From Candidatus Gottesmanbacteria bacterium (GTDB lineage Bacteria; Patescibacteriota; Microgenomatia; 2-02-FULL-39-11): a stretch of 64,000 nucleotides of DNA. The position numbers and the translations under genes were made by a program. Below are positions 49,811-61,767 of the stretch, in pieces. The stretch covers positions 899 through 64,898 of the forward strand of contig JACPZE010000003.1 in NCBI GenBank assembly GCA_016195685.1, given 5' to 3'. The notes beneath the pieces were generated by a model that was given only the letters and a program-made list of their open reading frames with translations, did no database searches and was not told where the DNA came from. Positions within the stretch are counted from its first letter, which is position 1; each line of letters opens with the position of its first letter.

Positions 49811-50833
49811 TTAATTTAATAAAGCAAATAAATCTTTAGGATCGGTAACTACTGGTGTCATATTGAGTTCTTCACCTATGTGATATTTTTGGGCAAGCTC
49901 ATATGTTAACCTTAGCACTGAATAATCTTCCAGTGCTATGCCGACGGAATCAAATAGAGTTATTTCCCGCTCATTTTCGCGGCCGCATTTAAAACCATTT
50001 ATCAATTCATAAAGCTCTCCATACACAAGTTTTTTTGCTTGAGATTTTTCCAGAACCTGGATTTCTCCTTCATCCTTTGATTGGTCAAAATATTCCACTA
50101 CTATACGACTCATAGGTAAAATACTTGCTTCCAACTCCGTTTTGCCTTTACTATCTCCACCGATAGCGTTTATATGAACCCCAGCCTTCACCCAATCCTT
50201 TTTTAGTGCTTCCATATGACCATAACATACCGTACAAACCGTAATAATATCAGCACTTTGTGTTGCTTCTTTGGCACTCTTACATCTTATTAGTCTTAAA
50301 TCTTTTCCGCTTAAATTCTTCTCGAATTTATCCATTGCTTTTGCATCTATATCAAAATATCGTACTTCCTTAATTCCTCTTATAATTTGCATTGCTTTCA
50401 CTTGAAATTCACTTTGGGCACCAGTTCCGATGATTGCTAAAGTCTTGGCATTTTTGCGAGCCATGAAATCCGCTGCTAACGCTGAGGTGGCCGCGGTTCG
50501 CAAAGCTGTAAGTATGGTCATCTCACTAAACATAAGTGGATAACCGGTGGCAATACTGACAAGTTGACCGGTAGCCACAATTGTTTGTTTACCAATCGAC
50601 GGGTTTTTAGGATGTAAATTCACGTATTTGAAAGTGTAATAAAGCTCATTATCACAAATAGGCATAAGCTCCAATACGCCAGCCGAGACACGCATACCCG
50701 GACGAGGTATTTTCGCAAACGTATGCCAACGACCAAAATCTCTCCGAAGAGATTTCATAACATCCCCCATGAAATTATCAAATCCATGAAGATTAAGCAG
50801 TTTAATTAGTGATTCCTCAGTTATTATTTTCAT
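49811..50833 (-). CDS. ornithine cyclodeaminase / mu-crystallin family enzyme (likely proline-forming)
   Basis: Rossmann motif AIIGTGAQSEFQVKAM and OCD-family length and pattern; sits under a T-box-type leader with proS. Confidence 0.7.
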   Translation of the reverse strand: MKIITEESLIKLLNLHGFDNFMGDVMKSLRRDFGRWHTFAKIPRPGMRVSAGVLELMPICDNELYYTFKYVNLHPKNPSIGKQTIVATGQLVSIATGYPLMFSEMTILTALRTAATSALAADFMARKNAKTLAIIGTGAQSEFQVKAMQIIRGIKEVRYFDIDAKAMDKFEKNLSGKDLRLIRCKSAKEATQSADIITVCTVCYGHMEALKKDWVKAGVHINAIGGDSKGKTELEASILPMSRIVVEYFDQSKDEGEIQVLEKSQAKKLVYGELYELINGFKCGRENEREITLFDSVGIALEDYSVLRLTYELAQKYHIGEELNMTPVVTDPKDLFALLN

Positions 50834-52364: not shown

Positions 52365-52928
52365 TTATATCTCACTTAGCTCCTTCTCCTTATTCTCCCT
52401 CATCATGTCTATCTCTGCCATAAATTCATCTGTAAATGTCTGTATCTCCTTTTCCAGATGTTTTTTCTCATCCTCTCCTAATTCCTTAGCTTCAAATTTA
52501 TGCTTCAGTTGTACCATGGACTCATGCCTGACTTGTCTCACCATCACCCGTCCTCCTTCAACTTTAGCATGGGCTAGCTTTATGTATTCCTGGCGCCTAT
52601 CATCCGTAAGGGGCGGAATACTGATCCGAAGGATATTGCCATCGGAAGCGGCAGAATAACCTAAATTAGCCGTATTGATGCTACGCTCGATATCCCGAAT
52701 GACTGTCGGATCAAAGGGGGCGATGACTAGCATCCTCGGACCATCGGTTGTGATGGTGGCCATTTCTTTAAGTCTTAGATGTTGGGTATTATCGTAAGCA
52801 GCTATTACTAAATTCTCAATAAGGGCAGCAGTGGCCCGGCCTGTTCTTATGGTACCCAAGTCTTCGGATAGGACTTTCATGGCCTTGACCATTTTATCTT
52901 TTGTCGAAGCTAGAAACTGTTGATCCAT
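52365..52928 (-). CDS. frr: ribosome recycling factor
   Basis: RRF pattern ...DDRRQEYIKLAHAKVEGGRVMVRQVRHE. Confidence 0.9.
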   Translation of the reverse strand: MDQQFLASTKDKMVKAMKVLSEDLGTIRTGRATAALIENLVIAAYDNTQHLRLKEMATITTDGPRMLVIAPFDPTVIRDIERSINTANLGYSAASDGNILRISIPPLTDDRRQEYIKLAHAKVEGGRVMVRQVRHESMVQLKHKFEAKELGEDEKKHLEKEIQTFTDEFMAEIDMMRENKEKELSEI

Positions 52929-52977
52929 GTGTCATTAGGATAACAAGAAACAGTATGTAAAACAAGTAGAAATTATT

Positions 52978-53348
52978 TGTCATTGCGAGCGAAGCGAAGC
53001 AATCTCTATAATAAAATTAGTGAAAAAACAATATTTTGTTTATATTGCTACGAATACAACGAATCGTGTTCTTTATACAGGAGTCACTAATAACTTAATT
53101 AAAAGAAATTTCCAACATAAAAAACAGTTTATATCCAGTTTTACCTCAAAATATAAAATTAATAAACTCGTTTATTATGAAATATTCGATGATATCAATG
53201 AAGCAATTAAAAGAGAAAAACAAATTAAAGGAGGATCTCGTAAAAAGAAAATAGATTTAATAAGAAACCTGAATCCTGGTTTTATTGATTTATATGAAGA
53301 AATTATTAAGTAAAGATTGCTTCGTCGCTAACGCTCCTCGCAATGACA
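52978..53348 (+). mobile_element. compact GIY-YIG element bounded by imperfect terminal inverted repeats
   Basis: left end tgtcattgcgagcgaagcgaagcaatct (52978-53005); right end agattgcttcgtcgctaacgctcctcgcaatgaca (53314-53348); outer 12 nt and inner 11 nt are exact inverted complements. Confidence 0.5.
53020..53313 (+). CDS. small GIY-YIG nuclease-family protein (97 aa)
   Basis: GIY-YIG core YFVYIATNTTNRVLYTGVTNNLIKRNFQH and conserved downstream E/R (YYEIFDDINEAIKREKQIK). Confidence 0.7.
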   Translation: MKKQYFVYIATNTTNRVLYTGVTNNLIKRNFQHKKQFISSFTSKYKINKLVYYEIFDDINEAIKREKQIKGGSRKKKIDLIRNLNPGFIDLYEEIIK

Positions 53349-53373
53349 TAAATGAATTAGTTGAATTAGTTTA

Positions 53374-55563
53374 ATGTATACTTATATTATGAAGGAAGAA
53401 AAAGTAGTATTGGAGCTTCGGACTCCCAAAACAGCCGAGGAAACACCTGAACATATGCAGCAGGTTTTCTCCGCGCTTTTTTCCGGCGGACACATCCCCC
53501 ATTGGAAAAGGCTTTGGATAAAAGTACGCACCCTTTCTTTTGAAATCGCATCGTTTAACCAAAGCATACATTTCTATACCGTTATCCCTAGGCCTTTTAA
53601 GACCTTCATCGAAAGCCAGCTCACCAGCCAGTATCCCAAGATCCTTATATCCGAAACGCCGGATTACATGGCAAATATCACCAAAAACAGATTTTTAGCC
53701 ATAGGAAATCTGCAACAAGCCGCCCCATTTTATTACCCTATAAAAACTCATGCGGATTTTAAAGAAATTGATTCCATATCTTCTATTCTGGGTGTACTCT
53801 CCAAATTCAGCCCGGAGGAAAGCTGCGTCATACAGATGGTGATAGAACCTCCGCATTTCAACTGGCAAGGTATGATACAACGGATGGTAGACCGAGGCAT
53901 TCCCGATCCTACTACCACGGCACCCAACCGGACCAAATCATTCCCTCATGCAAGTTTGATCGAGCAGAAAGTCAAACAAAGTGGTTATCGTACCTACATC
54001 AGAATCATGGTAGGAGCAGAAGATAACAAAAAAGCCCTATCCCTTCTTTTTAATATCGCCGGATCGTATGGAGCCTTTGCCTTGGGTGAAGGCAATAGAC
54101 TTGTTCTTCGTCGTCCCAGGCTTTTTTGGAAAAAAGTCATCTACAATAGAATACTGAAGCGCGAAAAAAGCCATTATCCCAGACACCAGGTATTAAATAC
54201 AGGCGAACTGGCTACCATCTGGCATCCGCCCACGATGCTACTTGCTGGGATAAAAAATATCGTCTGGGGCAGATCACTCGTGGGAGAACCTCCCCAAAAT
54301 CTGCCTGTTGCCGCAAATATCACAGAAATTGAAAAAGGGGATATAAATTTCATCGCCCGGGCTGAATTTAAAAATACCCTCACCACTTTTGGTATAAAAA
54401 GACCGGACAGAAGAAAACACATTTACATAATAGGGAAAACCGGTACCGGTAAATCTACCATGATCGCCAATATGGCTATAAACGACATGAGGAATCGGGA
54501 AGGTCTAGCTGTCATAGACCCTCATGGAGACCTATCTGACATACTTTTAAATTATATTCCCTCATATAGGATAAACGATGTCATATATTTGGAACCTTTT
54601 GATGTGGAACATCCCTTTTGGATGAACCCGTTGGAAGTGAAAAATCCCATCCACAAAGAATTGGTCACCTCCGGAATCGTATCGATCTTTTCCAAGCTTT
54701 ATGCCAAATCCTGGGGTCCCAGGCTTGAGTATATACTGCGGAATGTCATCCTTACTCTTATGGATTATCCGGATGCCACACTGGTTATGGCTTTGGATCT
54801 TTTATCTGACCAGAATTTCCGCCAGGGAGTACTAAATAAAGTAGAAAATAAGATCCTGCAGAATTTTTGGCACAATGAATTTGACAAAATGCACCCCAGG
54901 CTTAAAAGCGAGGCTATAGCTCCAATTCAAAATAAAGTAGGCCAGTTTGTACAATCTCCCACTATACGTCAAATCATCGGACATCCTACATCTACCATAG
55001 ACCTGGAGGAAGTGATGAACCAGGGGAAAATACTGATACTGAATCTTGCACAGGGTAAATTGGGTGAAGACAACGCAGCGCTTTTGGGTGCCATGTTTAT
55101 CACCAAAATGCAATTGGCAGCCATGAACAGGGTAAATTTGCCGGAGGAACAGAGGCGTGATTTCTACCTTTATGTAGATGAGTTTCAAAACTTCGCTACC
55201 ACATCTTTTATAAAAATATTATCTGAGGCGCGGAAATACCGCCTTGATCTTATCATGGCCAACCAATACATCGGACAAGTGGAGGAAGAAGTGCAAAAAG
55301 CTATTTTTGGCAATGCCGGATCTCTTATTTCTTTTGTCATCGGCGCCCAGGATGCTAGTGCTCTGACTAAGGAATTCGGCCAGTGGTATAAAGAAGAAGA
55401 CCTTGTAAATTTGGGTTCTTATCAGATAATCATCAAACTGGCTATAGATAACCTGACTTCACTTCCATTTCACGCACTCACTTTGCCACTTCCTAAATCA
55501 AAGAATCAAAACCGCGATAAAGTCGTGCGCCTCTCCAAAGAAAGATACACTAAGAAGCCTTAG
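53374..55563 (+). CDS. FtsK/HerA/TraG-VirD4-superfamily P-loop ATPase (DUF87/T4CP-like), 729 aa
   Basis: Walker A IIGKTGTGKST followed by AVIDPHGDL; Walker B LYVDEFQNF; downstream RKYRLDLIMANQYIGQ arginine-finger/Q motif region; non-TM 340-aa N-terminal domain. Confidence 0.6.
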   Translation: MYTYIMKEEKVVLELRTPKTAEETPEHMQQVFSALFSGGHIPHWKRLWIKVRTLSFEIASFNQSIHFYTVIPRPFKTFIESQLTSQYPKILISETPDYMANITKNRFLAIGNLQQAAPFYYPIKTHADFKEIDSISSILGVLSKFSPEESCVIQMVIEPPHFNWQGMIQRMVDRGIPDPTTTAPNRTKSFPHASLIEQKVKQSGYRTYIRIMVGAEDNKKALSLLFNIAGSYGAFALGEGNRLVLRRPRLFWKKVIYNRILKREKSHYPRHQVLNTGELATIWHPPTMLLAGIKNIVWGRSLVGEPPQNLPVAANITEIEKGDINFIARAEFKNTLTTFGIKRPDRRKHIYIIGKTGTGKSTMIANMAINDMRNREGLAVIDPHGDLSDILLNYIPSYRINDVIYLEPFDVEHPFWMNPLEVKNPIHKELVTSGIVSIFSKLYAKSWGPRLEYILRNVILTLMDYPDATLVMALDLLSDQNFRQGVLNKVENKILQNFWHNEFDKMHPRLKSEAIAPIQNKVGQFVQSPTIRQIIGHPTSTIDLEEVMNQGKILILNLAQGKLGEDNAALLGAMFITKMQLAAMNRVNLPEEQRRDFYLYVDEFQNFATTSFIKILSEARKYRLDLIMANQYIGQVEEEVQKAIFGNAGSLISFVIGAQDASALTKEFGQWYKEEDLVNLGSYQIIIKLAIDNLTSLPFHALTLPLPKSKNQNRDKVVRLSKERYTKKP

Positions 55564-55647
55564 GCTATAAATACACATCCTTATACATGTTTTAATACAT
55601 ATCTCAATACTTGACAGAATATGTATTTTGTGATATGTTAGCTTTGT

Positions 55648-55902
55648 ATGGACACGATAATTATTCCCATAACGGATTTTTTAAGGAAAGCCGGAGAATA
55701 CGCGGATAGACTTCCTTCACTTGAGAAAATCATCATAACCAGAGGCGGAAGACCGTTTGCTGAATTAAAGGCATCTCCCCAGGAAAAAAATAGAAAACTC
55801 ATAGAACTTATAAAAAGTTTTAACGGTAAACTTTTTGAAAATGAAGAAGTATGGAAAGCAGTATATACCAGAAGAAATAGAAAAAAGCCCATTACAATAT
55901 AA
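55648..55902 (+). CDS. Phd/YefM-family antitoxin
   Basis: 84 aa; IIPITDFLRKAGEYADR...IIITRGGRPFAELKA typical Phd/YefM. Confidence 0.55.
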   Translation: MDTIIIPITDFLRKAGEYADRLPSLEKIIITRGGRPFAELKASPQEKNRKLIELIKSFNGKLFENEEVWKAVYTRRNRKKPITI

Positions 55903-56262
55903 ATGAATTTTTTAATTGACACCTCTATACTTATAGAAATGCTTAGGAAAAATAAAGATGTTTTGGATTTTCTAGCTAATCATCTGGAAGATAGGTTTCT
56001 CACAAGCAGTATATGTGAGGCAGAAATTTGGGAAGGAGTTTATAGAGAAAAACCGATTAATTTTGTAAAAAGAAAGAAAAATGTTGAAGTTTTATTGGAA
56101 TCCCTGACAGGGACCATTACTTTTGATTCAAATCAGGCACAGATTGCAGGACAAATAAGATCTTCCCTTTCCTTAAAGGGAGAATTGACGGGTGACCTGG
56201 ATATTTTGATAGCCGCATCTGCTGTAACAAACGATGCAACCCTATATTTAATTTACCCATAA
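55903..56262 (+). CDS. VapC-type PIN-domain toxin (C-terminus looks truncated)
   Basis: MNFLIDTSILIE PIN N-terminus; immediately follows antitoxin; ends ...TNDATLYLIYP without the usual terminal acidic motif. Confidence 0.6.
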   Translation: MNFLIDTSILIEMLRKNKDVLDFLANHLEDRFLTSSICEAEIWEGVYREKPINFVKRKKNVEVLLESLTGTITFDSNQAQIAGQIRSSLSLKGELTGDLDILIAASAVTNDATLYLIYP

Positions 56263-56290
56263 AAAAGAGGTATCAAAACCAATCCTTTTA

Positions 56291-56623
56291 TCACCTCGTC
56301 TGGTGAATGATGTCTACTCCTTCTTCTACATTTTTCACTTTATCACCAGGTGCTAAAAAACTTCTGCTAGGCCCAACGAGAATTTGTTTTTCATCTGATA
56401 TTCCGTATCCTATATCGCATATATTATTTGGGTCAGTACCAGGTAGATGAACCATTACATCCACGTGTAAAATACGCCCACTTGAAAGCTTCCCCGAAAA
56501 ACTACTATTGCCTGTAATTTGTCCATCATCGACGATAGGATTATTCTTTCCATGATCGACAAAAATTAATCGACCATGACAACGTGGTATACCAAAAGTA
56601 TATTTGATACCTTCTCTAAACAT
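56291..56623 (-). pseudogene. N-terminally truncated dCTP deaminase/dUTPase-family gene fragment
   Basis: 110 aa matching only the C-terminal two thirds of Dcd (SSGRILHVDVMVHLPGTDPNN...FLAPGDKV versus [23 protein letters not shown]...ALRPGMLIG). Confidence 0.4.
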
Positions 56624-56701
56624 ATTAAATATTATACTAAATCTATCCTATAGTTTCAACAAAACTTGACTTATACTATAGGTTATGATATAAATTGCAG
56701 T

Positions 56702-56800
56702 CTATGCGGTATCAACAGGCCGTTTTTATTGTGGACCAATTTTTTGTGAATATCACCTTTATAAAAGGCAAAGCTTCCCTTTTGCGGGAAGATTTTTGCT
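56702..56800 (+). ncRNA. candidate ~100-nt small RNA (promoter plus intrinsic terminator, no ORF)
   Basis: TTGACT(56666-56671)-17 nt-TATAAA then about 100 nt ending in hairpin cttccc-ttttgc-gggaag (56774-56791) followed by ATTTTTGCTGAATTTTG. Confidence 0.3.
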
Positions 56801-57116
56801 GAATTTTGTTGTAAGTTCCGGTCCTAAATTGTGGGTATTTGCACTCACAACCAAAAACTGAAACTTACGACTTCGGAGCAAACGCTTCGAATAGCACTTT
56901 AACAAGGGAAATAGTGAAATTTATACCTCTAAATTATCTGGTTGTAGAGCTTCACATGGCAGAAAAATCTTTTCTACCAACTGTAGCTTTACAATCGGAT
57001 GAAAAAGGGTAAATAATGTTTGGTAAATATAGTTAATATTTAAGGATAGCGCTGTTGTTATAGAAAACATAATCTCAGTGACAGAAGATCTAAATCCGAC
57101 GTCACAAGAGGTTAAA

Positions 57117-58007
57117 ATGTTTAAAAGCAAAAGCACGCGGATCGCGGTAATTCTCGCGATCATCATGTTCGTCACGACTTTCGCTTTTACCGCGAACGTC
57201 GCAAGCGCACAGGGTCCCACACCTACGAAAAGCGTTGGTAGCAACAACGTTAATCAGGACTGTTTCGACTTGAAAAGTCCGTCTGGACCCCGAACAAAAC
57301 CTGGGGGGAAAGATAGCGCCGGGAACACCTGCGTCGCTGGCTTGCTCTGGACTGACCCCCAAGGCCGGTCGCTCAACGTCCCATACAACGGATACGCACT
57401 CAGTGCATCTAGCACAACGACGGGGACGATTACGCCAGGTGTGTCACTCACGAACACGGCTCCCTCCGACAATCTGGCAGCACCAACGGGTTCGACAAGA
57501 CCGAAGTATAATGTGTGCACGTTCAACGAGGACGGCACAAAGTATACGGTCGAACCAGATGCAGCCCCGGCAGTGGTCCACGCGCCTAACGGTACAATCG
57601 TTACTTTGGCGTGCACTTGGGATGATTCTCGCGGGGCAGTACCGGATCGGTCGGAAAAAACAGCGCTCGAAGTACAAATCGAAACCTGGCGGAGTGTCCT
57701 CTGGACAGGGATCACGATGATCCTCTCCGTTGTGTTTGCGATTGGCGCGCTGGTAGCAGCTGGGTTCATCGCGGTAGCGATGGTGCATGGCGACTTGTTC
57801 CGATCGGTGCGTGACTTCTGCTCTTCATGCACATCCCTTTGGTGGGGGTGGCGGCGGAGCACCCGGTGGTGGAGAACACGCTGCGAAAGAAAACCACTAG
57901 AAGCAGGCTCCTCAATGAGTCGACTTCGCTGTACGAAAGGTACCAGAACGAAAGATAAGGGGCCGCCGGGGAGTGGAGAAGCTGTTTTGTGGACCAACAC
58001 AAAATAA
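57117..58007 (+). CDS. GC-rich (foreign-composition) secreted protein with C-terminal TM anchor
   Basis: signal peptide MFKSKSTRIAVILAIIMFVTTFAFTANVASAQ; Thr/Ser/Pro-rich ectodomain with Cys; TM helix ITMILSVVFAIGALVAAGFIAVAMV; third-codon positions mostly G/C, unlike every other gene. Confidence 0.55.
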   Translation: MFKSKSTRIAVILAIIMFVTTFAFTANVASAQGPTPTKSVGSNNVNQDCFDLKSPSGPRTKPGGKDSAGNTCVAGLLWTDPQGRSLNVPYNGYALSASSTTTGTITPGVSLTNTAPSDNLAAPTGSTRPKYNVCTFNEDGTKYTVEPDAAPAVVHAPNGTIVTLACTWDDSRGAVPDRSEKTALEVQIETWRSVLWTGITMILSVVFAIGALVAAGFIAVAMVHGDLFRSVRDFCSSCTSLWWGWRRSTRWWRTRCERKPLEAGSSMSRLRCTKGTRTKDKGPPGSGEAVLWTNTK

Positions 58008-58176
58008 ATGCGGTTCACCGCAGCTTCCTCCGCCTTCGGCGCGACATCACAACCAAACATCATCACTATTTCCCTTATCTTTCAAATCTTCAGAATTCTG
58101 GAAGTTTGGGAGATAGGACAGAACAATTTCTAATTACTGATTTTTAATTTCTAATAAATTTAGATTGGAAATTGGG

Positions 58177-58422
58177 TTAATTTTGGGGTACGATTTCGAG
58201 GCGTTCTTCTATAAGTTCAACTCTCTTCCGGAGATCGAGATACTCTTTGTCGAAAAAATCAGCGATTGTACTTATATCTTTACGGATTTTTGTATTATCT
58301 TTTTTTATCACCTTCACATCTGATTTTAAAGCATTCAAATCAGTTTTTATGGGATGAAGTTCTTCTTTAATAAATTTCATTAAAGTATTTCTAATAGATA
58401 GAAGATCAATTTTTGTCAACAT
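58177..58422 (-). CDS. small coiled-coil hypothetical protein (81 aa)
   Basis: ORF only; its promoter and first 11 codons are duplicated 580 bp away. Confidence 0.4.
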   Translation of the reverse strand: MLTKIDLLSIRNTLMKFIKEELHPIKTDLNALKSDVKVIKKDNTKIRKDISTIADFFDKEYLDLRKRVELIEERLEIVPQN

Positions 58423-58511
58423 GAAAAGATATTACCAAGTGAAAATTACGAAGTCAATTACTAATCAGAAGAATTGCATTTGACAAAAAAGTTAAAAGCA
58501 GGAAAATAGAG

Positions 58512-58949
58512 GTGCTTATGACCGATCATAGAATTGATGCGGATAGAATCGGTGAAGTAGCAGCTAAATACCGGTCGAAATTGGATTATCATCAAAGAGA
58601 CGTTGTTCAGAGTTTCGATATTTTTGTTTACAGAAATGCTTCTAGAATAATTAATAACCCCAGAGGTGACCAATCTCCGGTAGGTTTGAATTGGGCACAT
58701 CAATCTGAAGCAAAAACGACCGCAGATACATTAAGAGCAGATTTACAAAGAGCTCGAGTTTTTAAAAAAATTCCACTAAGTGCACTAATTTATTTTACCG
58801 CCGGAGATATAATCGCATACCAACAAGAAAATATAAGAGATCCCAGAAGAAGGGAATATCCCCATGTCATTTTGCAAAGTGTTGCTTTTGATGTAGTTGG
58901 AGTAATTTTTCCTAATAATGGATTGAGAAGAGATATACCGAATTGGTAA
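58512..58949 (+). CDS. hypothetical protein (145 aa) between duplicated segments
   Basis: ORF only; no domain recognised. Confidence 0.3.
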   Translation: MLMTDHRIDADRIGEVAAKYRSKLDYHQRDVVQSFDIFVYRNASRIINNPRGDQSPVGLNWAHQSEAKTTADTLRADLQRARVFKKIPLSALIYFTAGDIIAYQQENIRDPRRREYPHVILQSVAFDVVGVIFPNNGLRRDIPNW

Positions 58950-58974
58950 GGTGAATCCTTATTGTATTTCTGAT

Positions 58975-59038
58975 AGATAAAAGATCGATTTTTATCAGCA
59001 TGAGGAAATATTATCAAGTGAAAATTGTGAAGTCAATA
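58975..59038 (-). repeat. second copy of a ~65-nt promoter/5'-CDS segment (first copy 58397-58460)
   Basis: about 85 % identity; copy 2 encodes MLIKIDLLSIRNT then stops after 29 codons (copy 1 begins MLTKIDLLSIRNT). Confidence 0.6.
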
Positions 59039-59099
59039 AGTTTGTTAGAAAAAAAGAAGAAAAATTATTTCCCACCTAATTGATAGCGAATGAAGTAGA

Positions 59100-60080
59100 C
59101 TAGTGTCCCCTATTTATCCAGTAATTTTCATCCACTTTACCGTTTGCCAAATCATTCCAATAATCTTCCCCCATTAAATTTCCGCTTCTTTCTTTCATAC
59201 GCTTTTTCATGAGGGATATTTTTGCATATAATATGCTGTCAGATTGAGCAATATTCATAATATCCTGATACTTATTCATCAACCACCATGCAACAGTTGC
59301 CTGATCTTCATCAGCATCTACAGTTCCGTACCGTTCAGCAAATCCTTGCGGTCTTGAGTTAATATCAAAATATTTCCAGGTTCTTCTATCAAAAAGATTA
59401 AAAGCTGGCAGTGGCCACTGATATTCATATAACTCTGCACCTTCCGGACCATTCAAATTTACCCATTCAGCATCCCCGATTGGAAATTTTTGCTCCCTTT
59501 TGATTGCAAGATGATTTAACTCATGATGAAAACCCCACGGCTCACCATTATCATCCAGCTCTACAAAAAATGAGTTTTCGATCGGACATGCTTCTGAACG
59601 GGAAGAACATGCCTTTCCACCCCAATCGTTACCATCTTGCTTCAATTTCTTAATTAACCTAATTTCATCTAATTTAGTGTACCTTATATATGTGGGAGGA
59701 TATTTGGCCAGTTCCTTCTTAAGGCTATAAATCGCGTTTAATTCCTCACAGGCCGTAAGTTTTTGGCCTGAAAATTTTGCCCTTTTTTCTTCATCAGTCA
59801 AATCTCCAGAATAGATATATACACCATAACGTACCTTCAATTCTGCTTTCAATTGCGCAATAGCTTTATTTTGACTTTCACCATCTGCTGGACAACCTAA
59901 ATCTGAAAATGCAGCTGTTTGAACCCCAACCGTAGAAGAATTAATACTTGCATAAGTGGGAGTAGTGGTGGTAAAACCTCGTTGCGTTCCTGTACCAGCT
60001 AATTTTTGTAACGCGTCAATTGAATCTACTATAGGTTTCGCACCAAATACATATGCGGCGGCTTGTGCGCTATTACGCAA
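59100..60080 (-). CDS. HExxH-motif putative zinc metallopeptidase (C-terminal part of a split gene)
   Basis: FHHELNHLAI motif; begins at TTG directly after an in-frame stop; overlaps upstream ORF in another frame. Confidence 0.4.
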   Translation of the reverse strand: MRNSAQAAAYVFGAKPIVDSIDALQKLAGTGTQRGFTTTTPTYASINSSTVGVQTAAFSDLGCPADGESQNKAIAQLKAELKVRYGVYIYSGDLTDEEKRAKFSGQKLTACEELNAIYSLKKELAKYPPTYIRYTKLDEIRLIKKLKQDGNDWGGKACSSRSEACPIENSFFVELDDNGEPWGFHHELNHLAIKREQKFPIGDAEWVNLNGPEGAELYEYQWPLPAFNLFDRRTWKYFDINSRPQGFAERYGTVDADEDQATVAWWLMNKYQDIMNIAQSDSILYAKISLMKKRMKERSGNLMGEDYWNDLANGKVDENYWINRGH

Positions 60081-60406
60081 AAATCTCGTCTAGTAATAGC
60101 ATTTCCTGTAAATTGATGATTGACTAGTATAGCATGTTCATCCGATACTGCCACCGAATGAACCGTTTCTTTTTCTGGATTACCTATCACCCTGCGAATA
60201 AACCCCCTTCTTGGCAGTTGAGATGAGGCTGTTAAGATATTCTCTTTTGGAAATACAATACTTGATTGAGCTGTTTGGGCGGGACTGACCGGAACTAAAT
60301 GTGTCTCAGGTACAGGAATTAATGCCGTTGACTTTGGATCAGCTACAACAAAATCCGGCATTCTTTTTACCGATGTAAAAGTATCCATTTCCTGTCTGAT
60401 TGACAT
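60029..60406 (-). CDS. N-terminal part of the split HExxH gene (125 aa)
   Basis: 52-nt out-of-frame overlap with 59100..60080 around a T5 homopolymer. Confidence 0.35.
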   Translation of the reverse strand: MSIRQEMDTFTSVKRMPDFVVADPKSTALIPVPETHLVPVSPAQTAQSSIVFPKENILTASSQLPRRGFIRRVIGNPEKETVHSVAVSDEHAILVNHQFTGNAITRRDFCVIAHKPPHMYLVRNL

Positions 60407-60489
60407 AACTATAGGATATTATAGACTAAAAACCGTGCAGGTTCAAGTTTCTATAGGGATTTAAATTATTTAGTATTCTAGAGGAATAT

Positions 60490-60948
60490 TTACTTTTCTC
60501 CAAGCTGGAAGCGGATGAAGCGAGCTACGGTGATATTTTCTCCAAGTTTACCAATCACTTGCTTTACTAATCTTTCAATTGTCAATCCCGGATCACGGAT
60601 ATATTCTTGGGCAAGAAGTGCTTTCACATCTTTCGGATTCATAGAGGCTATTTGAAGACAAAGTTCGTGGGCGAGATTTTTAAAATCATCGGTTCGGGCG
60701 ACAAAATCTGTTTCACAAAGTAGTTCTACCAATACTCCCACTTTCCCCCCGGGATGGACATAACTGTCTACAATACCAGCTTTGGTCTCTCGGCCTACTT
60801 TTTTCTCCGATTTCTCTATCCCCCATTTGGCTAAAAGTGCTTCAGCCTTTTTCTCATCTCCTTTGGTTTCTTCCAAAGCGCGCCTGCAATCCATGATACC
60901 GGCGCCTGTTTTTTCCCGGAGTTTTTTGATTTGAGCAATTGTGGACAT
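60490..60948 (-). CDS. tsf: elongation factor Ts (short form)
   Basis: N-terminal UBA-like IAQIKKLREKTGAGIMDCRRALEETKGD; 152 aa. Confidence 0.85.
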   Translation of the reverse strand: MSTIAQIKKLREKTGAGIMDCRRALEETKGDEKKAEALLAKWGIEKSEKKVGRETKAGIVDSYVHPGGKVGVLVELLCETDFVARTDDFKNLAHELCLQIASMNPKDVKALLAQEYIRDPGLTIERLVKQVIGKLGENITVARFIRFQLGEK

Positions 60949-60960
60949 AAGTTTCTAAAG

Positions 60961-61767
60961 TTACTTAAGTTTCTTAGGTTTTGATTTTTTCTGCGGTTTC
61001 TCTTCTTTCTTTGCTTCAATTTTTTCTTCTGTTTTTTTCGGTAATTCTTTCTCTTTCGGTTCTGAAGTGTCTTCTTTTTTCTCACCAAGTTTTTTGCCTT
61101 CCAGATATGCATCTGCCAAGTAATTTACGATAAATTGGATGCTTCCAACTGCATCATCGTTGGCAGGTATGGGATAGTCTACATTATTCGGATTGGTGTT
61201 AGTGTCTATAATGGCCACTATCGGAATTTTACATTTGACGGCTTCCCGAAGAGATGATATCTCCCTTTTGATATCTATGATGAATATGGCTTCTGGGACT
61301 CTGGTGAGTTCTTTTACACCGGTATATACAGACTCCAGCTTACGGAGATCTTTCTCCAATTTCACTTGTTCATGCTTGGGGAATTTTTTCCAGATACCTC
61401 CATCCAGCTCTTTCCTCATCCTGTTTGCCTTGTCTATATTTTTCTTGACTTCTTCCCAATTGGTCAGAAATCCACCAATCCAACGGTTTGTGAGATAGAA
61501 AACAACTGCTCTTTTGGCAGCATCTGAAACAATGCCCTTTGATTGCCTTTTGGTAGCTACAAAAAGAACAACTTTACCTGTCTGGCCGAGATTTTTGAGA
61601 TATTCTCCAGCATTTTTCAGCCCGTCGCGGGTCTTCACCAAATCTATGATGTGTATCCCTTCACGCTCACCAAAGATAAATTCAGCCGCTTTAGGATGCC
61701 ACCTCTCTACCTTGTGGCCAAAATGACAACCTGCTTCCAATAGATCTTTCAGTGATACGTCTTTCAT
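60961..61767 (-). CDS. rpsB: 30S ribosomal protein S2 with Lys/Glu-rich C-terminal extension
   Basis: LLEAGCHFGHKVERWHPK... S2 core; tail KKEDTSEPKEKELPKKTEEK. Confidence 0.9.
   Translation of the reverse strand: MKDVSLKDLLEAGCHFGHKVERWHPKAAEFIFGEREGIHIIDLVKTRDGLKNAGEYLKNLGQTGKVVLFVATKRQSKGIVSDAAKRAVVFYLTNRWIGGFLTNWEEVKKNIDKANRMRKELDGGIWKKFPKHEQVKLEKDLRKLESVYTGVKELTRVPEAIFIIDIKREISSLREAVKCKIPIVAIIDTNTNPNNVDYPIPANDDAVGSIQFIVNYLADAYLEGKKLGEKKEDTSEPKEKELPKKTEEKIEAKKEEKPQKKSKPKKLK

What the first reader, a model, noticed from the sequence alone, without database searches (positions are those of the whole stretch)
52929..60489. A ~7.5 kb accessory island sits inside the conserved rpsB-tsf-(pyrH)-frr locus
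In most bacteria rpsB, tsf, pyrH and frr are contiguous. Here rpsB-tsf (61767..60490) and frr (52928..52365) are separated by about 7.5 kb that contains no pyrH. The insert is mixed-strand and decayed. It holds a GIY-YIG mini-element with inverted repeats, a 729-aa FtsK/HerA/T4CP-like ATPase, Phd-VapC, a truncated Dcd/dUTPase fragment, a candidate sRNA, a GC-rich foreign gene, duplicated promoter segments, and a frameshifted HExxH protein. This reads as an integration hotspot, a defence-island-like variable region in an otherwise syntenic core.
Basis: partly seen in the sequence, partly recalled or inferred. Interest (0 to 1): 0.7.

Follow-up and report, generated by a model that had tools for sequence, protein, structure and literature searches.

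The report
Conserved ATPase flanked by variable slots
The 7.5 kb between tsf and frr in this Gottesmanbacteria (CPR) genome is not a single foreign island: a conserved, vertically inherited VirD4-like ATPase gene sits there in all sampled relatives, and only the two gaps beside it are hot spots that collect toxin-antitoxin pairs, small mobile elements and decaying orphan genes.

Summary
rpsB-tsf (61767..60490) and frr (52928..52365) lie 7,561 bp apart, and there is no pyrH anywhere in the 64 kb window.

The organism is a Candidatus Gottesmanbacteria (Patescibacteria).
- In one GTDB genome and about 35 metagenome or Logan contigs, the order proS-rseP-frr(-) | 729-aa ATPase(+) | tsf-rpsB(-) is always the same.
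- The ATPase is 64-91% identical across them. It is more conserved than Frr (mean 78% vs 68%) and co-diverges with it (r=0.87).
- A sister lineage has rpsB-tsf-frr contiguous, still without pyrH, with the ATPase next door.
- So the missing pyrH and the ATPase are ancestral, not inserted.

What varies is the two intergenic slots.
- The frr-ATPase gap is 39 bp to 3.4 kb in relatives. Here it holds a 371-bp GIY-YIG element with inverted repeats.
- The ATPase-tsf gap is 10 bp to more than 4 kb. Here it is 4.9 kb, the largest fully bounded case.
- Relatives carry other toxin-antitoxin pairs, IS200-like transposases and orphan surface proteins at these spots.
- Relic copies of the tsf and ATPase 3' ends mark past insertions.

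Sub-claims:
- The frameshifted HExxH gene, the GC-rich orphan and the duplicated promoter segment are confirmed.
- The Dcd/dUTPase fragment is not supported.
- "Defence island" is not supported.

This is an ordinary flexible islet of modest interest.

The parts
60961..61767 (-). rpsB (ribosomal protein S2), conserved flank
   Evidence: Pfam Ribosomal_S2 E 8e-78. It is 64-73% identical in relatives.
60490..60948 (-). tsf (short 152-aa EF-Ts), conserved right anchor of slot B
   Evidence: Pfam EF_TS E 1e-19. It is 66-84% identical in 14 related loci and always convergent with the ATPase.
59100..60406 (-). Frameshifted gene for a Tat-signal, HHExxH-motif secreted protein (ORFs of 125 aa and 326 aa; shift at the T5 run 60079-60083)
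   Evidence: The frames are shown. A full HMMER scan finds 330 remote homologues of about 300 aa. Homologue P0122 starts with 'LTRRDFLK', which matches the split junction 'ITRRDF|LRNSAQAAAYVFGA', and the HHExxH motif is conserved in homologues. There is a weak NCBIfam LIC13305-lipoprotein match at 3e-14, below the cut-off. The same split is present in an independent Logan contig, L054, at 99.9% identity.
59065..59106 (-). Relic copy of the tsf 3' end (TLVYFIRYQLGGK*), marking the far end of the HExxH insertion
   Evidence: tblastn hit and alignments. The score is 40, against 12.5 +/- 3.6 (maximum 32) in 1000 simulated slots.
58956..59037 (-). Second copy of the 82-nt promoter-plus-5'-end repeat (decayed paralogue of the orf81 start)
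   Evidence: the repeat finder family D1, 83% identity. Promoter-like TTGACT-17-TAATAT site. The similarity ends after about 15 codons.
58512..58949 (+). orf145, orphan ORF of unknown function
   Evidence: Coding-like GC1/GC3 pattern of 0.49/0.23. It is called as a 143-aa gene on L054. No Pfam or NCBIfam hit.
58177..58458 (-). orf81 (coiled-coil-like small ORF) with its promoter-like segment (first copy of the 82-nt repeat, 58377-58458)
   Evidence: Only sub-threshold coiled-coil Pfam hits.
57078..58007 (+). GC-rich orphan gene encoding an N-terminal signal/anchor segment, an ectodomain of about 170 aa and a C-terminal TM helix. A more likely start is the ATG at 57117.
   Evidence: GC 0.55 and GC3 0.58. 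Hydrophobic segments at residues 18-44 and 204-241. No homologue among 5.8 billion protein clusters, IMG/VR, plasmids or phages.
56660..56918 (+). Conserved non-coding element: promoter-like TTGACT-N17-TATAAA (56666-56694) plus a conserved block at 56893-56918. It marks the ancestral sequence that follows the ATPase stop in close relatives.
   Evidence: blastn and pattern matches to L043, L045, L046-48, L015 and L050. Alignment. Fold z-score -2.1. No Rfam family.
   Evidence: No match in Pfam, NCBIfam, PDB or PADLOC. BLASTP against Dcd gives E 2.4. The AF2 model has pLDDT 47.
55648..56262 (+). Type II toxin-antitoxin pair: Phd-like antitoxin (55648-55902) and PIN/VapC toxin (55903-56262, slightly short at the C-terminus)
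   Evidence: Pfam PIN 2.6e-8 and PhdYeFM 0.008. NCBIfam VapC 2e-15, below the cut-off. The Phd is homologous to the L029 slot antitoxin. A promoter-like TTGACA-17-TATGTT site lies at 55611-55639.
53374..55563 (+). Conserved VirD4/TrwB-like (T4CP-type) ATPase with an N-terminal DUF8128 domain. It is the fixed anchor between the two slots. The likely true start is 53389.
   Evidence: Pfam matches. PDB TrwB match at 2e-7. 7,933 homologues, mostly Patescibacteria, carrying precomputed PF26449 (DUF8128). Walker A GKTGTGKST and Walker B LYVDEFQ are invariant in 36 sequences. AF2 pLDDT 79; Foldseek hits TrwK/VirB4, Cag-beta and TrwB. No TM segment. Same position in all relatives.
52978..53348 (+). 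371-bp GIY-YIG mini-element: 97-aa ORF (53020-53313) between imperfect inverted repeats (52978-53005 and 53314-53348), 23% GC
   Evidence: Pfam GIY-YIG 1.3e-14. Inverted repeats. It is absent from the 57-102-bp frr-ATPase spacers of the closest relatives. Logan unitigs of the same strain break inside the left repeat.
52365..52928 (-). frr (ribosome recycling factor), conserved left anchor, divergent from the ATPase
   Evidence: Pfam RRF 7e-49. It is 62-81% identical in 29 related loci.

Best explanation
The tsf-frr interval is an ancestral three-part arrangement of a Gottesmanbacteria subclade: rpsB-tsf, then the ATPase on the opposite strand, then frr-rseP-proS. It is not an inserted island.

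The ATPase:
- It is a TM-less VirD4/TrwB-type P-loop motor with an N-terminal DUF8128 domain.
- It belongs to the chromosomal 'orphan T4CP' family that is near-universal in Patescibacteria.
- It is inherited vertically under strong purifying selection.

pyrH:
- pyrH was already absent from this operon before the ATPase came to lie between tsf and frr.

The two slots:
- Only the two short spacers around the ATPase are plastic. Slot A is the divergent frr/ATPase promoter region. Slot B is the convergent ATPase/tsf terminator region.
- Slot B tolerates insertions because no promoter or operon is interrupted there.
- In this genome slot B has accumulated at least three or four independent pieces:
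  1. About 1.1 kb with Phd-VapC and orf110, inserted between the ATPase stop and a conserved promoter-like element.
  2. A compositionally foreign GC-rich surface-protein gene.
  3. orf81 and orf145 with a duplicated promoter segment.
  4. About 1.4 kb with a Tat-signal HExxH gene, inserted at the 3' end of tsf and leaving a relic tsf terminus.
- Slot A received a 371-bp GIY-YIG element.

Mechanism and fate (inferred, not shown):
- Insertions enter by recombination at or within the 3' ends of the flanking core genes. This could be homology-facilitated recombination with DNA from related strains or small site-specific elements, with IS200-like transposition occurring in some relatives.
- TA modules may help their retention.
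- Most cargo then decays, as seen in the frameshift, the truncation and the orphan fragments.
For: Synteny:
- L001 (GTDB genome) and metagenome or Logan loci L015-L050 all show frr(-) | ATPase(+) | tsf(-) in the same orientation. 29 loci show frr plus ATPase and 14 show ATPase plus tsf.

Conservation of the ATPase:
- The ATPase is 64-91% identical (71-91% over full-length matches), against 62-81% for Frr. The means are 78% vs 68% and Pearson r is 0.87 (n=17).
- Walker A and B are invariant.

Outgroup:
- In L055 (60% ATPase identity), rpsB-tsf-frr is contiguous without pyrH and the ATPase is adjacent.
- No pyrH is found in about 40 related loci, while it is present upstream of frr in five non-CPR controls.

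Family identity of the ATPase:
- Pfam, PDB and Foldseek results.
- A distant homologue lies inside a complete T4SS cluster.
- The literature reports 5,713 VirD4-like T4CPs in 2,918 Patescibacteria genomes, only 148 of them near virB4 (PMC12102498).

Variability of the slots:
- Gap A is 39-3,357 bp and gap B is 10-2,555 bp where both ends are seen. L021 has at least 4,024 bp, and the window has 4,926 bp.
- Slot proteins are shared only between sister contigs.
- Relatives carry Phd-PIN, MazE-Doc, RHH plus toxin, Y1_Tnp and secreted PT-rich proteins in the same slot.

Insertion scars:
- A tsf 3' relic in the window (p<0.001).
- ATPase 3' relics in L016 (E 2e-14) and L017 (E 5e-5).
- A conserved element lies 11-13 nt after the ATPase stop in L043 and L050, but 1.1 kb after it here and 0.76 kb after it in L046.

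Composition and decay:
- GC3 is 0.58 for the GC-rich gene and 0.16 for GIY-YIG, against about 0.3-0.45 for the host.
- The frameshift is shown.
Against: - The sampling was seeded with the ATPase, so genomes of the clade that lack it at this site would have been missed. The only unbiased probe, Frr against GTDB species representatives, returned a single close relative, which does have it.
- No integrase, and no transposase in the window itself, explains the insertions. The recombination mechanism is inferred from three relic 3' ends only.
- The stretch 53001-58242 is not covered by any independent contig of the same strain. No exact product of the ATPase, VapC or orf110 is on record. The continuity of the GC-rich patch therefore rests on this assembly alone.
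- Whether any cargo gene is expressed or functional is unknown.
Confidence: 0.8

Rival explanations
1. One reading: the whole 7.5 kb, ATPase included, is an accessory or defence-type island that inserted into rpsB-tsf-pyrH-frr and displaced or deleted pyrH.
For: - The ATPase has conjugation- and HerA-type domains typical of mobile or defence loci.
- The interval has mixed strands, a TA pair, a compositionally odd gene and pseudogenes.
Against: - The ATPase is present at this site in every related contig and co-diverges with Frr.
- pyrH is already absent in the sister lineage, which has contiguous rpsB-tsf-frr.
- No PADLOC system is found.
- No integrase, relaxase or T4SS genes occur in the 64-kb window.
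Confidence: 0.05
2. The locus is the eroded remnant of an ancient integrative conjugative or mobilisable element. Its coupling-protein gene was domesticated, and its other genes have been replaced piecemeal, which would explain why the flanks stay unstable.
For: - The ATPase shows T4CP homology.
- In a distant relative the orthologue still lies inside a full T4SS cluster.
- TA modules and an NTase-type TA sit next to the ATPase in several lineages, including the outgroup.
- The literature suggests that Patescibacteria T4SS genes were acquired horizontally and that T4CP may be exapted (PMC12102498).
Against: - No integrase, relaxase or other T4SS gene occurs in any of about 40 loci around this site.
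- The ATPase family is near-universal and chromosomal in the phylum.
- At 57-59% identity the gene sits in unrelated housekeeping contexts such as groESL and coaD-like genes. The link to tsf/frr is therefore a later local rearrangement rather than an element boundary.
Confidence: 0.1
3. Part of the interval, especially the GC-rich patch at 57.1-58.05 kb, is an assembly or binning chimera rather than real contiguous sequence.
For: - GC jumps abruptly from about 30% to about 60%.
- The ORF has no homologue anywhere.
- Independent Logan contigs of the same strain stop at 53000 and at 58243 and do not cover the stretch.
Against: - The ORF begins in AT-rich host-like sequence with a canonical signal peptide and ends with a TM helix.
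- Upstream of it lies an element shared with relatives.
- Secreted, TM-anchored orphan proteins occupy the same slot in other lineages (L017, L018, L030).
- Logan unitigs break at any repeat or strain variant, so their ends are weak evidence.
Confidence: 0.07

Closest known systems
Flexible genomic islets / integration hot spots between conserved core genes (as described generally for bacteria and, for Patescibacteria, in PMC12455944)
   Same: - Conserved flanking core genes with lineage-specific content between them.
- Compositional heterogeneity.
- TA modules, small transposases and orphan genes.
- Decay of the cargo.
   Different: - Very small scale: 0.01-5 kb, with single-gene insertions.
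- No tRNA and no integrase.
- There are two slots on either side of one conserved gene.
- The insertion scars are duplicated 3' ends of protein-coding genes (tsf and the ATPase).
Patescibacteria chromosomal VirD4-like type IV coupling protein homologues (PMC12102498)
   Same: - TrwB/VirD4-type nucleotide-binding and all-alpha domains, with Walker A and B.
- Encoded far from virB4 and without a relaxase, like most of the 5,713 homologues reported.
   Different: - It has an N-terminal DUF8128 domain instead of the transmembrane anchor of classical T4CPs.
- The full-length fold search ranks VirB4/TrwK first (E 1e-10, low TM).
- In this subclade it is fixed between tsf and frr.
Canonical rpsB-tsf-pyrH-frr operon (E. 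coli, Bacillus; seen here in controls L002, L003, L004, L006 and L010)
   Same: rpsB-tsf are adjacent and co-oriented, and frr is on the same strand downstream.
   Different: - pyrH is absent from the locus in the whole clade and in its sister lineage.
- An antisense ATPase gene separates tsf from frr.
Type II Phd/YefM-VapC (PIN) toxin-antitoxin modules
   Same: - A small antitoxin ORF abuts a PIN-domain toxin ORF (stop and start codons adjacent), with its own promoter-like site.
- The acidic residues D6, E39/E41, D97/D99 and D111 are present.
   Different: - The antitoxin is below the Pfam threshold.
- The toxin is about 10-15 residues short at the C-terminus relative to VapC profiles (positions 1-110 of 130 matched).

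Membership tests
Genomic island / insertion hot spot | Content between conserved flanking genes differs among related genomes | tested here: met
   Gap sizes are 39-3,357 bp (slot A) and from 10 bp to at least 4,024 bp (slot B). The proteins are unrelated across lineages.
Genomic island / insertion hot spot | The whole claimed interval (52929-60489) is accessory | tested here: not met
   The ATPase (53374-55563) is conserved at this site in all related loci.
Genomic island / insertion hot spot | Atypical composition of the cargo | tested here: met
   GC3 is 0.58 for the GC-rich ORF and 0.16 for GIY-YIG, against about 0.3-0.45 for neighbours.
Genomic island / insertion hot spot | Mobility gene (integrase or transposase) or att-like repeats at the borders | tested here: inconclusive
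   There is no integrase or transposase in the window. Y1_Tnp occurs in the same slot of L017 and L050. Relic 3' ends of tsf (window) and of the ATPase (L016, L017) act as scars.
Defence island | Cluster of several recognised anti-phage systems | tested here: not met
   PADLOC gives only generic mad8/HerA ATPase similarity for the conserved ATPase and no hit for the other eight ORFs. One TA pair is present.
Type IV coupling protein (VirD4/TrwB) | P-loop nucleotide-binding domain with Walker A/B plus an all-alpha domain | tested here: met
   Pfam TrwB_AAD_bind covers residues 345-638 (E 2.5e-12), with TraG-D_C also matched. PDB TrwB match at 2e-7. Foldseek TrwB TM(target) is 0.5-0.57. The motifs are invariant.
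Type IV coupling protein (VirD4/TrwB) | N-terminal transmembrane anchor | tested here: not met
   No hydrophobic segment is present (maximum Kyte-Doolittle 19-residue mean 1.29). The N-terminal 300 aa form a soluble alpha/beta DUF8128 domain.
Type IV coupling protein (VirD4/TrwB) | Genetic linkage to a relaxase or T4SS genes | tested here: not met
   None occurs in the 64-kb window or in the related loci. Linkage is seen only for a 56%-identical homologue (L051).
Integrative conjugative / mobilisable element | Integrase plus relaxase (with or without T4SS), with defined ends | tested here: not met
   No such genes occur in the interval or in about 40 related loci.
rpsB-tsf-pyrH-frr operon | pyrH between tsf and frr | tested here: not met
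   tblastn is negative in the window and in all Gottesmanbacteria loci, and positive in five control loci.
Type II TA, Phd-VapC | Adjacent small antitoxin plus PIN-domain toxin | tested here: met
   PIN scores 34.9 bits against a cut-off of 23.6. The Phd-like ORF is weak here (16.3 bits against 29.8) but homologous to the L029 Phd, which passes.
Dcd/dUTPase | Sequence or fold similarity to the dUTPase-like beta-barrel | tested here: not met
   No Pfam, NCBIfam or PDB hit at E<=10. BLASTP gives E 2.4. The model is too poor to test the fold.

The most novel reading that the evidence does not exclude
The TM-less DUF8128-VirD4/VirB4-like ATPase is locked between translation-factor genes and evolves more slowly than RRF and S2. 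It may be a housekeeping DNA or protein translocase exapted from the type IV secretion machinery. The insertion-prone spacers with duplicated gene 3' ends, together with a conserved promoter-like/RNA element just after its stop codon, might then reflect a functional link between this motor and the uptake or integration of foreign DNA in CPR bacteria.
Probability: 0.08. Interest if true: 0.6.

Novelty: new member of a known kind. Interest (0 to 1): 0.25.

Why it matters
- It corrects a plausible misreading. In this CPR lineage the 'broken' rpsB-tsf-pyrH-frr operon is an old, stable arrangement, and the conjugation-like ATPase inside it is a core gene.
- Only about 5.4 kb of the 7.5 kb is truly flexible.
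- The locus gives a compact, well-delimited example of how very small genomes still gain and lose genes: single-gene insertions at the 3' ends of convergent core genes, with different toxin-antitoxin pairs landing at the same spot.
- It adds a synteny marker for a Gottesmanbacteria subclade.
- It adds one data point to the open question of what the orphan VirD4-like ATPases of Patescibacteria do.
- None of this is surprising to a specialist.

Tried and rejected
1. Dcd/dUTPase identity of orf110. Nothing supports it.
2. Origin of the GC-rich ORF. There is no hit among 5.8 billion protein clusters, IMG/VR, PLSDB (blastn) or INPHARED (tblastn). The donor is unknown.
3. Viral origin of the HExxH gene. 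No IMG/VR relative was found.
4. Known RNA family in the interval. Rfam at E<=1 gave only a spurious plant miRNA hit.
5. Defence systems. PADLOC was negative.
6. Independent confirmation of 53001-58242. Exact-product look-ups of the ATPase, VapC and orf110 found nothing.
7. Relic ATPase 3' end or target-site duplications around the Phd-VapC insertion in the window. None was found.
8. Tat-signal HMMs on the repaired HExxH protein. Pfam gave no hit. The motif is supported only by direct comparison with homologues.
9. VirB4/T4SS cluster elsewhere in the window. The 20 largest other ORFs are housekeeping genes or have no Pfam hit.
10. Literature on DUF8128 or on GIY-YIG mini-elements. Nothing useful was found.

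Full report
**What is there**

The window is a low-GC (37.6%) chromosomal stretch of housekeeping genes. Source names of the ATPase homologues place it in Candidatus Gottesmanbacteria (Microgenomates, Patescibacteria).

rpsB is at 60961-61767, tsf at 60490-60948 and frr at 52365-52928, all on the minus strand and separated by 7,561 bp. tblastn with a Bacillales PyrH finds nothing in the 64 kb. The same query finds pyrH directly upstream of frr in five non-CPR control loci.

**The key test: related genomes**

- An Frr search of GTDB species representatives gave one close relative, L001. It has rpsB-tsf, a 728-aa ATPase on the opposite strand, and then frr-rseP-proS.
- The two ATPases are 75% identical, against 63% for Frr.
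- A metagenome scan seeded with the ATPase returned 28 contigs. Exact-product look-ups for the closest homologues (91% and 86% identity) added more.
- In every contig with enough flank the order and orientation are identical: proS-rseP-frr(-) | ATPase(+) | tsf-rpsB(-). 29 contigs show frr plus ATPase and 14 show ATPase plus tsf.
- ATPase identity (mean 78%) exceeds Frr identity (mean 68%) and co-varies with it (r=0.87, n=17).
- Walker A (GKTGTGKST) and Walker B (LYVDEFQ) are invariant in a 36-sequence alignment.
- The ATPase is therefore a vertically inherited core gene of this subclade, not cargo.

**Deeper history**

- A 60%-identical homologue (L055) lies next to a contiguous rpsB-tsf-frr block whose tsf-frr spacer is 196 bp, with no pyrH.
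- The absence of pyrH therefore predates the arrangement seen here.
- The ATPase was already a neighbour of this operon. A local rearrangement then placed it between tsf and frr.
- At 57-59% identity the gene sits in other housekeeping contexts.
- At 56% identity it sits inside a complete monoderm-type T4SS cluster with PrgI, a TraC-like gene, VirB4, an M23 peptidase and four T4SS pilins.

**What the ATPase is**

- Pfam matches TrwB_AAD_bind, DUF87 and TraG-D_C, with a precomputed N-terminal DUF8128.
- TrwB is the only PDB sequence hit (2e-7).
- The AF2 model (pLDDT 79) matches TrwK/VirB4 over its full length (E 1e-10, low TM). It matches Cag-beta and TrwB over the motor (TM(target) 0.47-0.57).
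- It has no transmembrane segment.
- This fits the published finding that Patescibacteria carry thousands of chromosomal VirD4-like T4CP homologues, mostly remote from virB4 and without relaxases, and possibly exapted (PMC12102498).
- It works like a T4CP-type hexameric motor. Strict T4CP membership fails on the TM anchor and on genetic linkage.

**What is variable**

- The frr-ATPase spacer (slot A) ranges from 39 bp to 3.4 kb in relatives.
- The ATPase-tsf spacer (slot B) ranges from 10 bp to 2.6 kb where both ends are seen, and is at least 4.0 kb in L021. The window's 4,926 bp is the largest bounded case.
- Slot proteins are shared only between sister contigs. The only cross-lineage match to window cargo is the Phd antitoxin of L029.
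- Relatives hold the following in slot B:
  - Phd-PIN (L029).
  - MazE-Doc plus an IS200-like Y1 transposase (L017).
  - RHH plus a toxin (L046 group).
  - A Y1 transposase (L050).
  - Secreted PT-rich proteins (L018, L030).
  - Membrane proteins (L024).

**Anatomy of the window's cargo**

- Slot A holds a 371-bp, 23%-GC GIY-YIG element with inverted repeats at 52978-53005 and 53314-53348. It is absent from the 57-102-bp spacers of the closest relatives. Unitigs of the same strain break in its left repeat.
- Slot B, first piece. A promoter-like element (TTGACT-N17-TATAAA, 56666-56694) lies 11-13 nt after the ATPase stop in L043, L045 and L050. Here it lies 1.1 kb after the stop, and in L046 it lies after a different TA pair. 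This delimits Phd-VapC-orf110 (55564-56659) as one discrete insertion at a spot hit independently in another lineage.
- Slot B, second piece. The GC-rich ORF (GC3 0.58) encodes a signal peptide, an ectodomain and a TM anchor. It has no homologue anywhere.
- Slot B, third piece. orf81 and orf145 sit with an 82-nt duplicated promoter/5' segment.
- Slot B, fourth piece. The HExxH gene is truly frameshifted. The Tat motif TRRDF|LRNSAQAAAYVFGA is split at a T5 run (60079-60083) and matches 'LTRRDFLK' of the best homologue. 330 remote homologues of about 300 aa share the HHExxH motif.
- Insertion scar. Immediately after the HExxH stop lies a relic tsf terminus, TLVYFIRYQLGGK*. It scores far above 1000 simulated slots (40, against a maximum of 32) and resembles tsf ends of other Gottesmanbacteria.
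- Analogous relic ATPase 3' ends lie inside slot B of L016 and L017.

I infer that insertions enter by recombination at the 3' ends of the two convergent core genes. This step is not demonstrated.

**Not supported**

- The Dcd/dUTPase reading of orf110.
- A defence island.
- An ICE or prophage: there is no integrase, relaxase or viral relative.
- The candidate sRNA remains only a lead: a conserved promoter-like element, z=-2.1 and no Rfam family.

**Caveats**

- The main scan was seeded with the ATPase, so relatives lacking it at this site would be missed.
- The stretch 53001-58242 is not independently covered by contigs of the same strain. A chimeric join at the GC-rich patch cannot be fully excluded.

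**Verdict**

This is an ordinary small flexible region in two slots flanking a conserved orphan VirD4-like ATPase, within an ancestrally pyrH-less rpsB-tsf/frr neighbourhood. It is a new member of a known kind, with interest of about 0.25.

Noticed in passing
window 59065-59106 (-); L016 12623-12736; L017 13995-14063: Relic copies of the 3' ends of the flanking core genes lie inside the variable slot: tsf in the window, and the ATPase in L016 and L017. They suggest that insertions recombine within or at the gene termini.
   Followed up: partly
window 56660-56918 (+); L043 12186-12215; L046 12414-12461 and 12586-12611; L050 9441-9456: A conserved promoter-like element (TTGACT-N17-TATAAA, with the spacer also conserved) and a second conserved block lie downstream of the ATPase in the closest relatives. 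This may be a small RNA or a leader. In L050 an IS200-like element has replaced the -10 region.
   Followed up: partly
window 49811-50833 (-): An ornithine cyclodeaminase/mu-crystallin gene sits between rseP and proS only in this genome and in L032. Other relatives have rseP next to proS or hold other genes there, for example a tRNA_bind protein in L046. This is a second small variable slot.
   Followed up: partly
L013/L014 ends at window 53000-53003; L054 end at window 58243: Logan unitigs of the same strain (99.9-100% identical) stop inside the left GIY-YIG inverted repeat and inside orf81. No exact ATPase, VapC or orf110 product is on record. This could reflect repeats, strain heterogeneity or fragmentary assembly.
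   Followed up: partly
L051 1-18187 (homologue P0108): A 56%-identical orthologue of the ATPase lies in a full Patescibacteria T4SS cluster next to dnaN: PrgI, a TraC-like gene, VirB4, an M23 peptidase, four T4SS pilins and a 1402-aa protein.
   Followed up: no
L005, L007-L009, L011 (Holophagaceae): These non-CPR control loci also lack pyrH directly upstream of frr, so the canonical tsf-pyrH-frr adjacency is not universal outside CPR either.
   Followed up: no
window 60029-60406 (-), residues ~70-85 of the 125-aa ORF: Upstream of the true Tat motif, the 125-aa reading frame contains a second RR-type motif, 'LPRRGFIRRVIG'. It resembles the N-terminus of homologue P0130 ('IPRRGLVKRIVKAG'). It may be a decayed duplicate N-terminus.
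   Followed up: no
L034 3580-3591; L031 3509-3781: The GIY-YIG inverted-repeat core TGTCATTGCGAG recurs upstream of rpsB in L034. A 49%-identical GIY-YIG ORF sits between rseP and frr in L031. The element family is therefore scattered around this neighbourhood in relatives.
   Followed up: no
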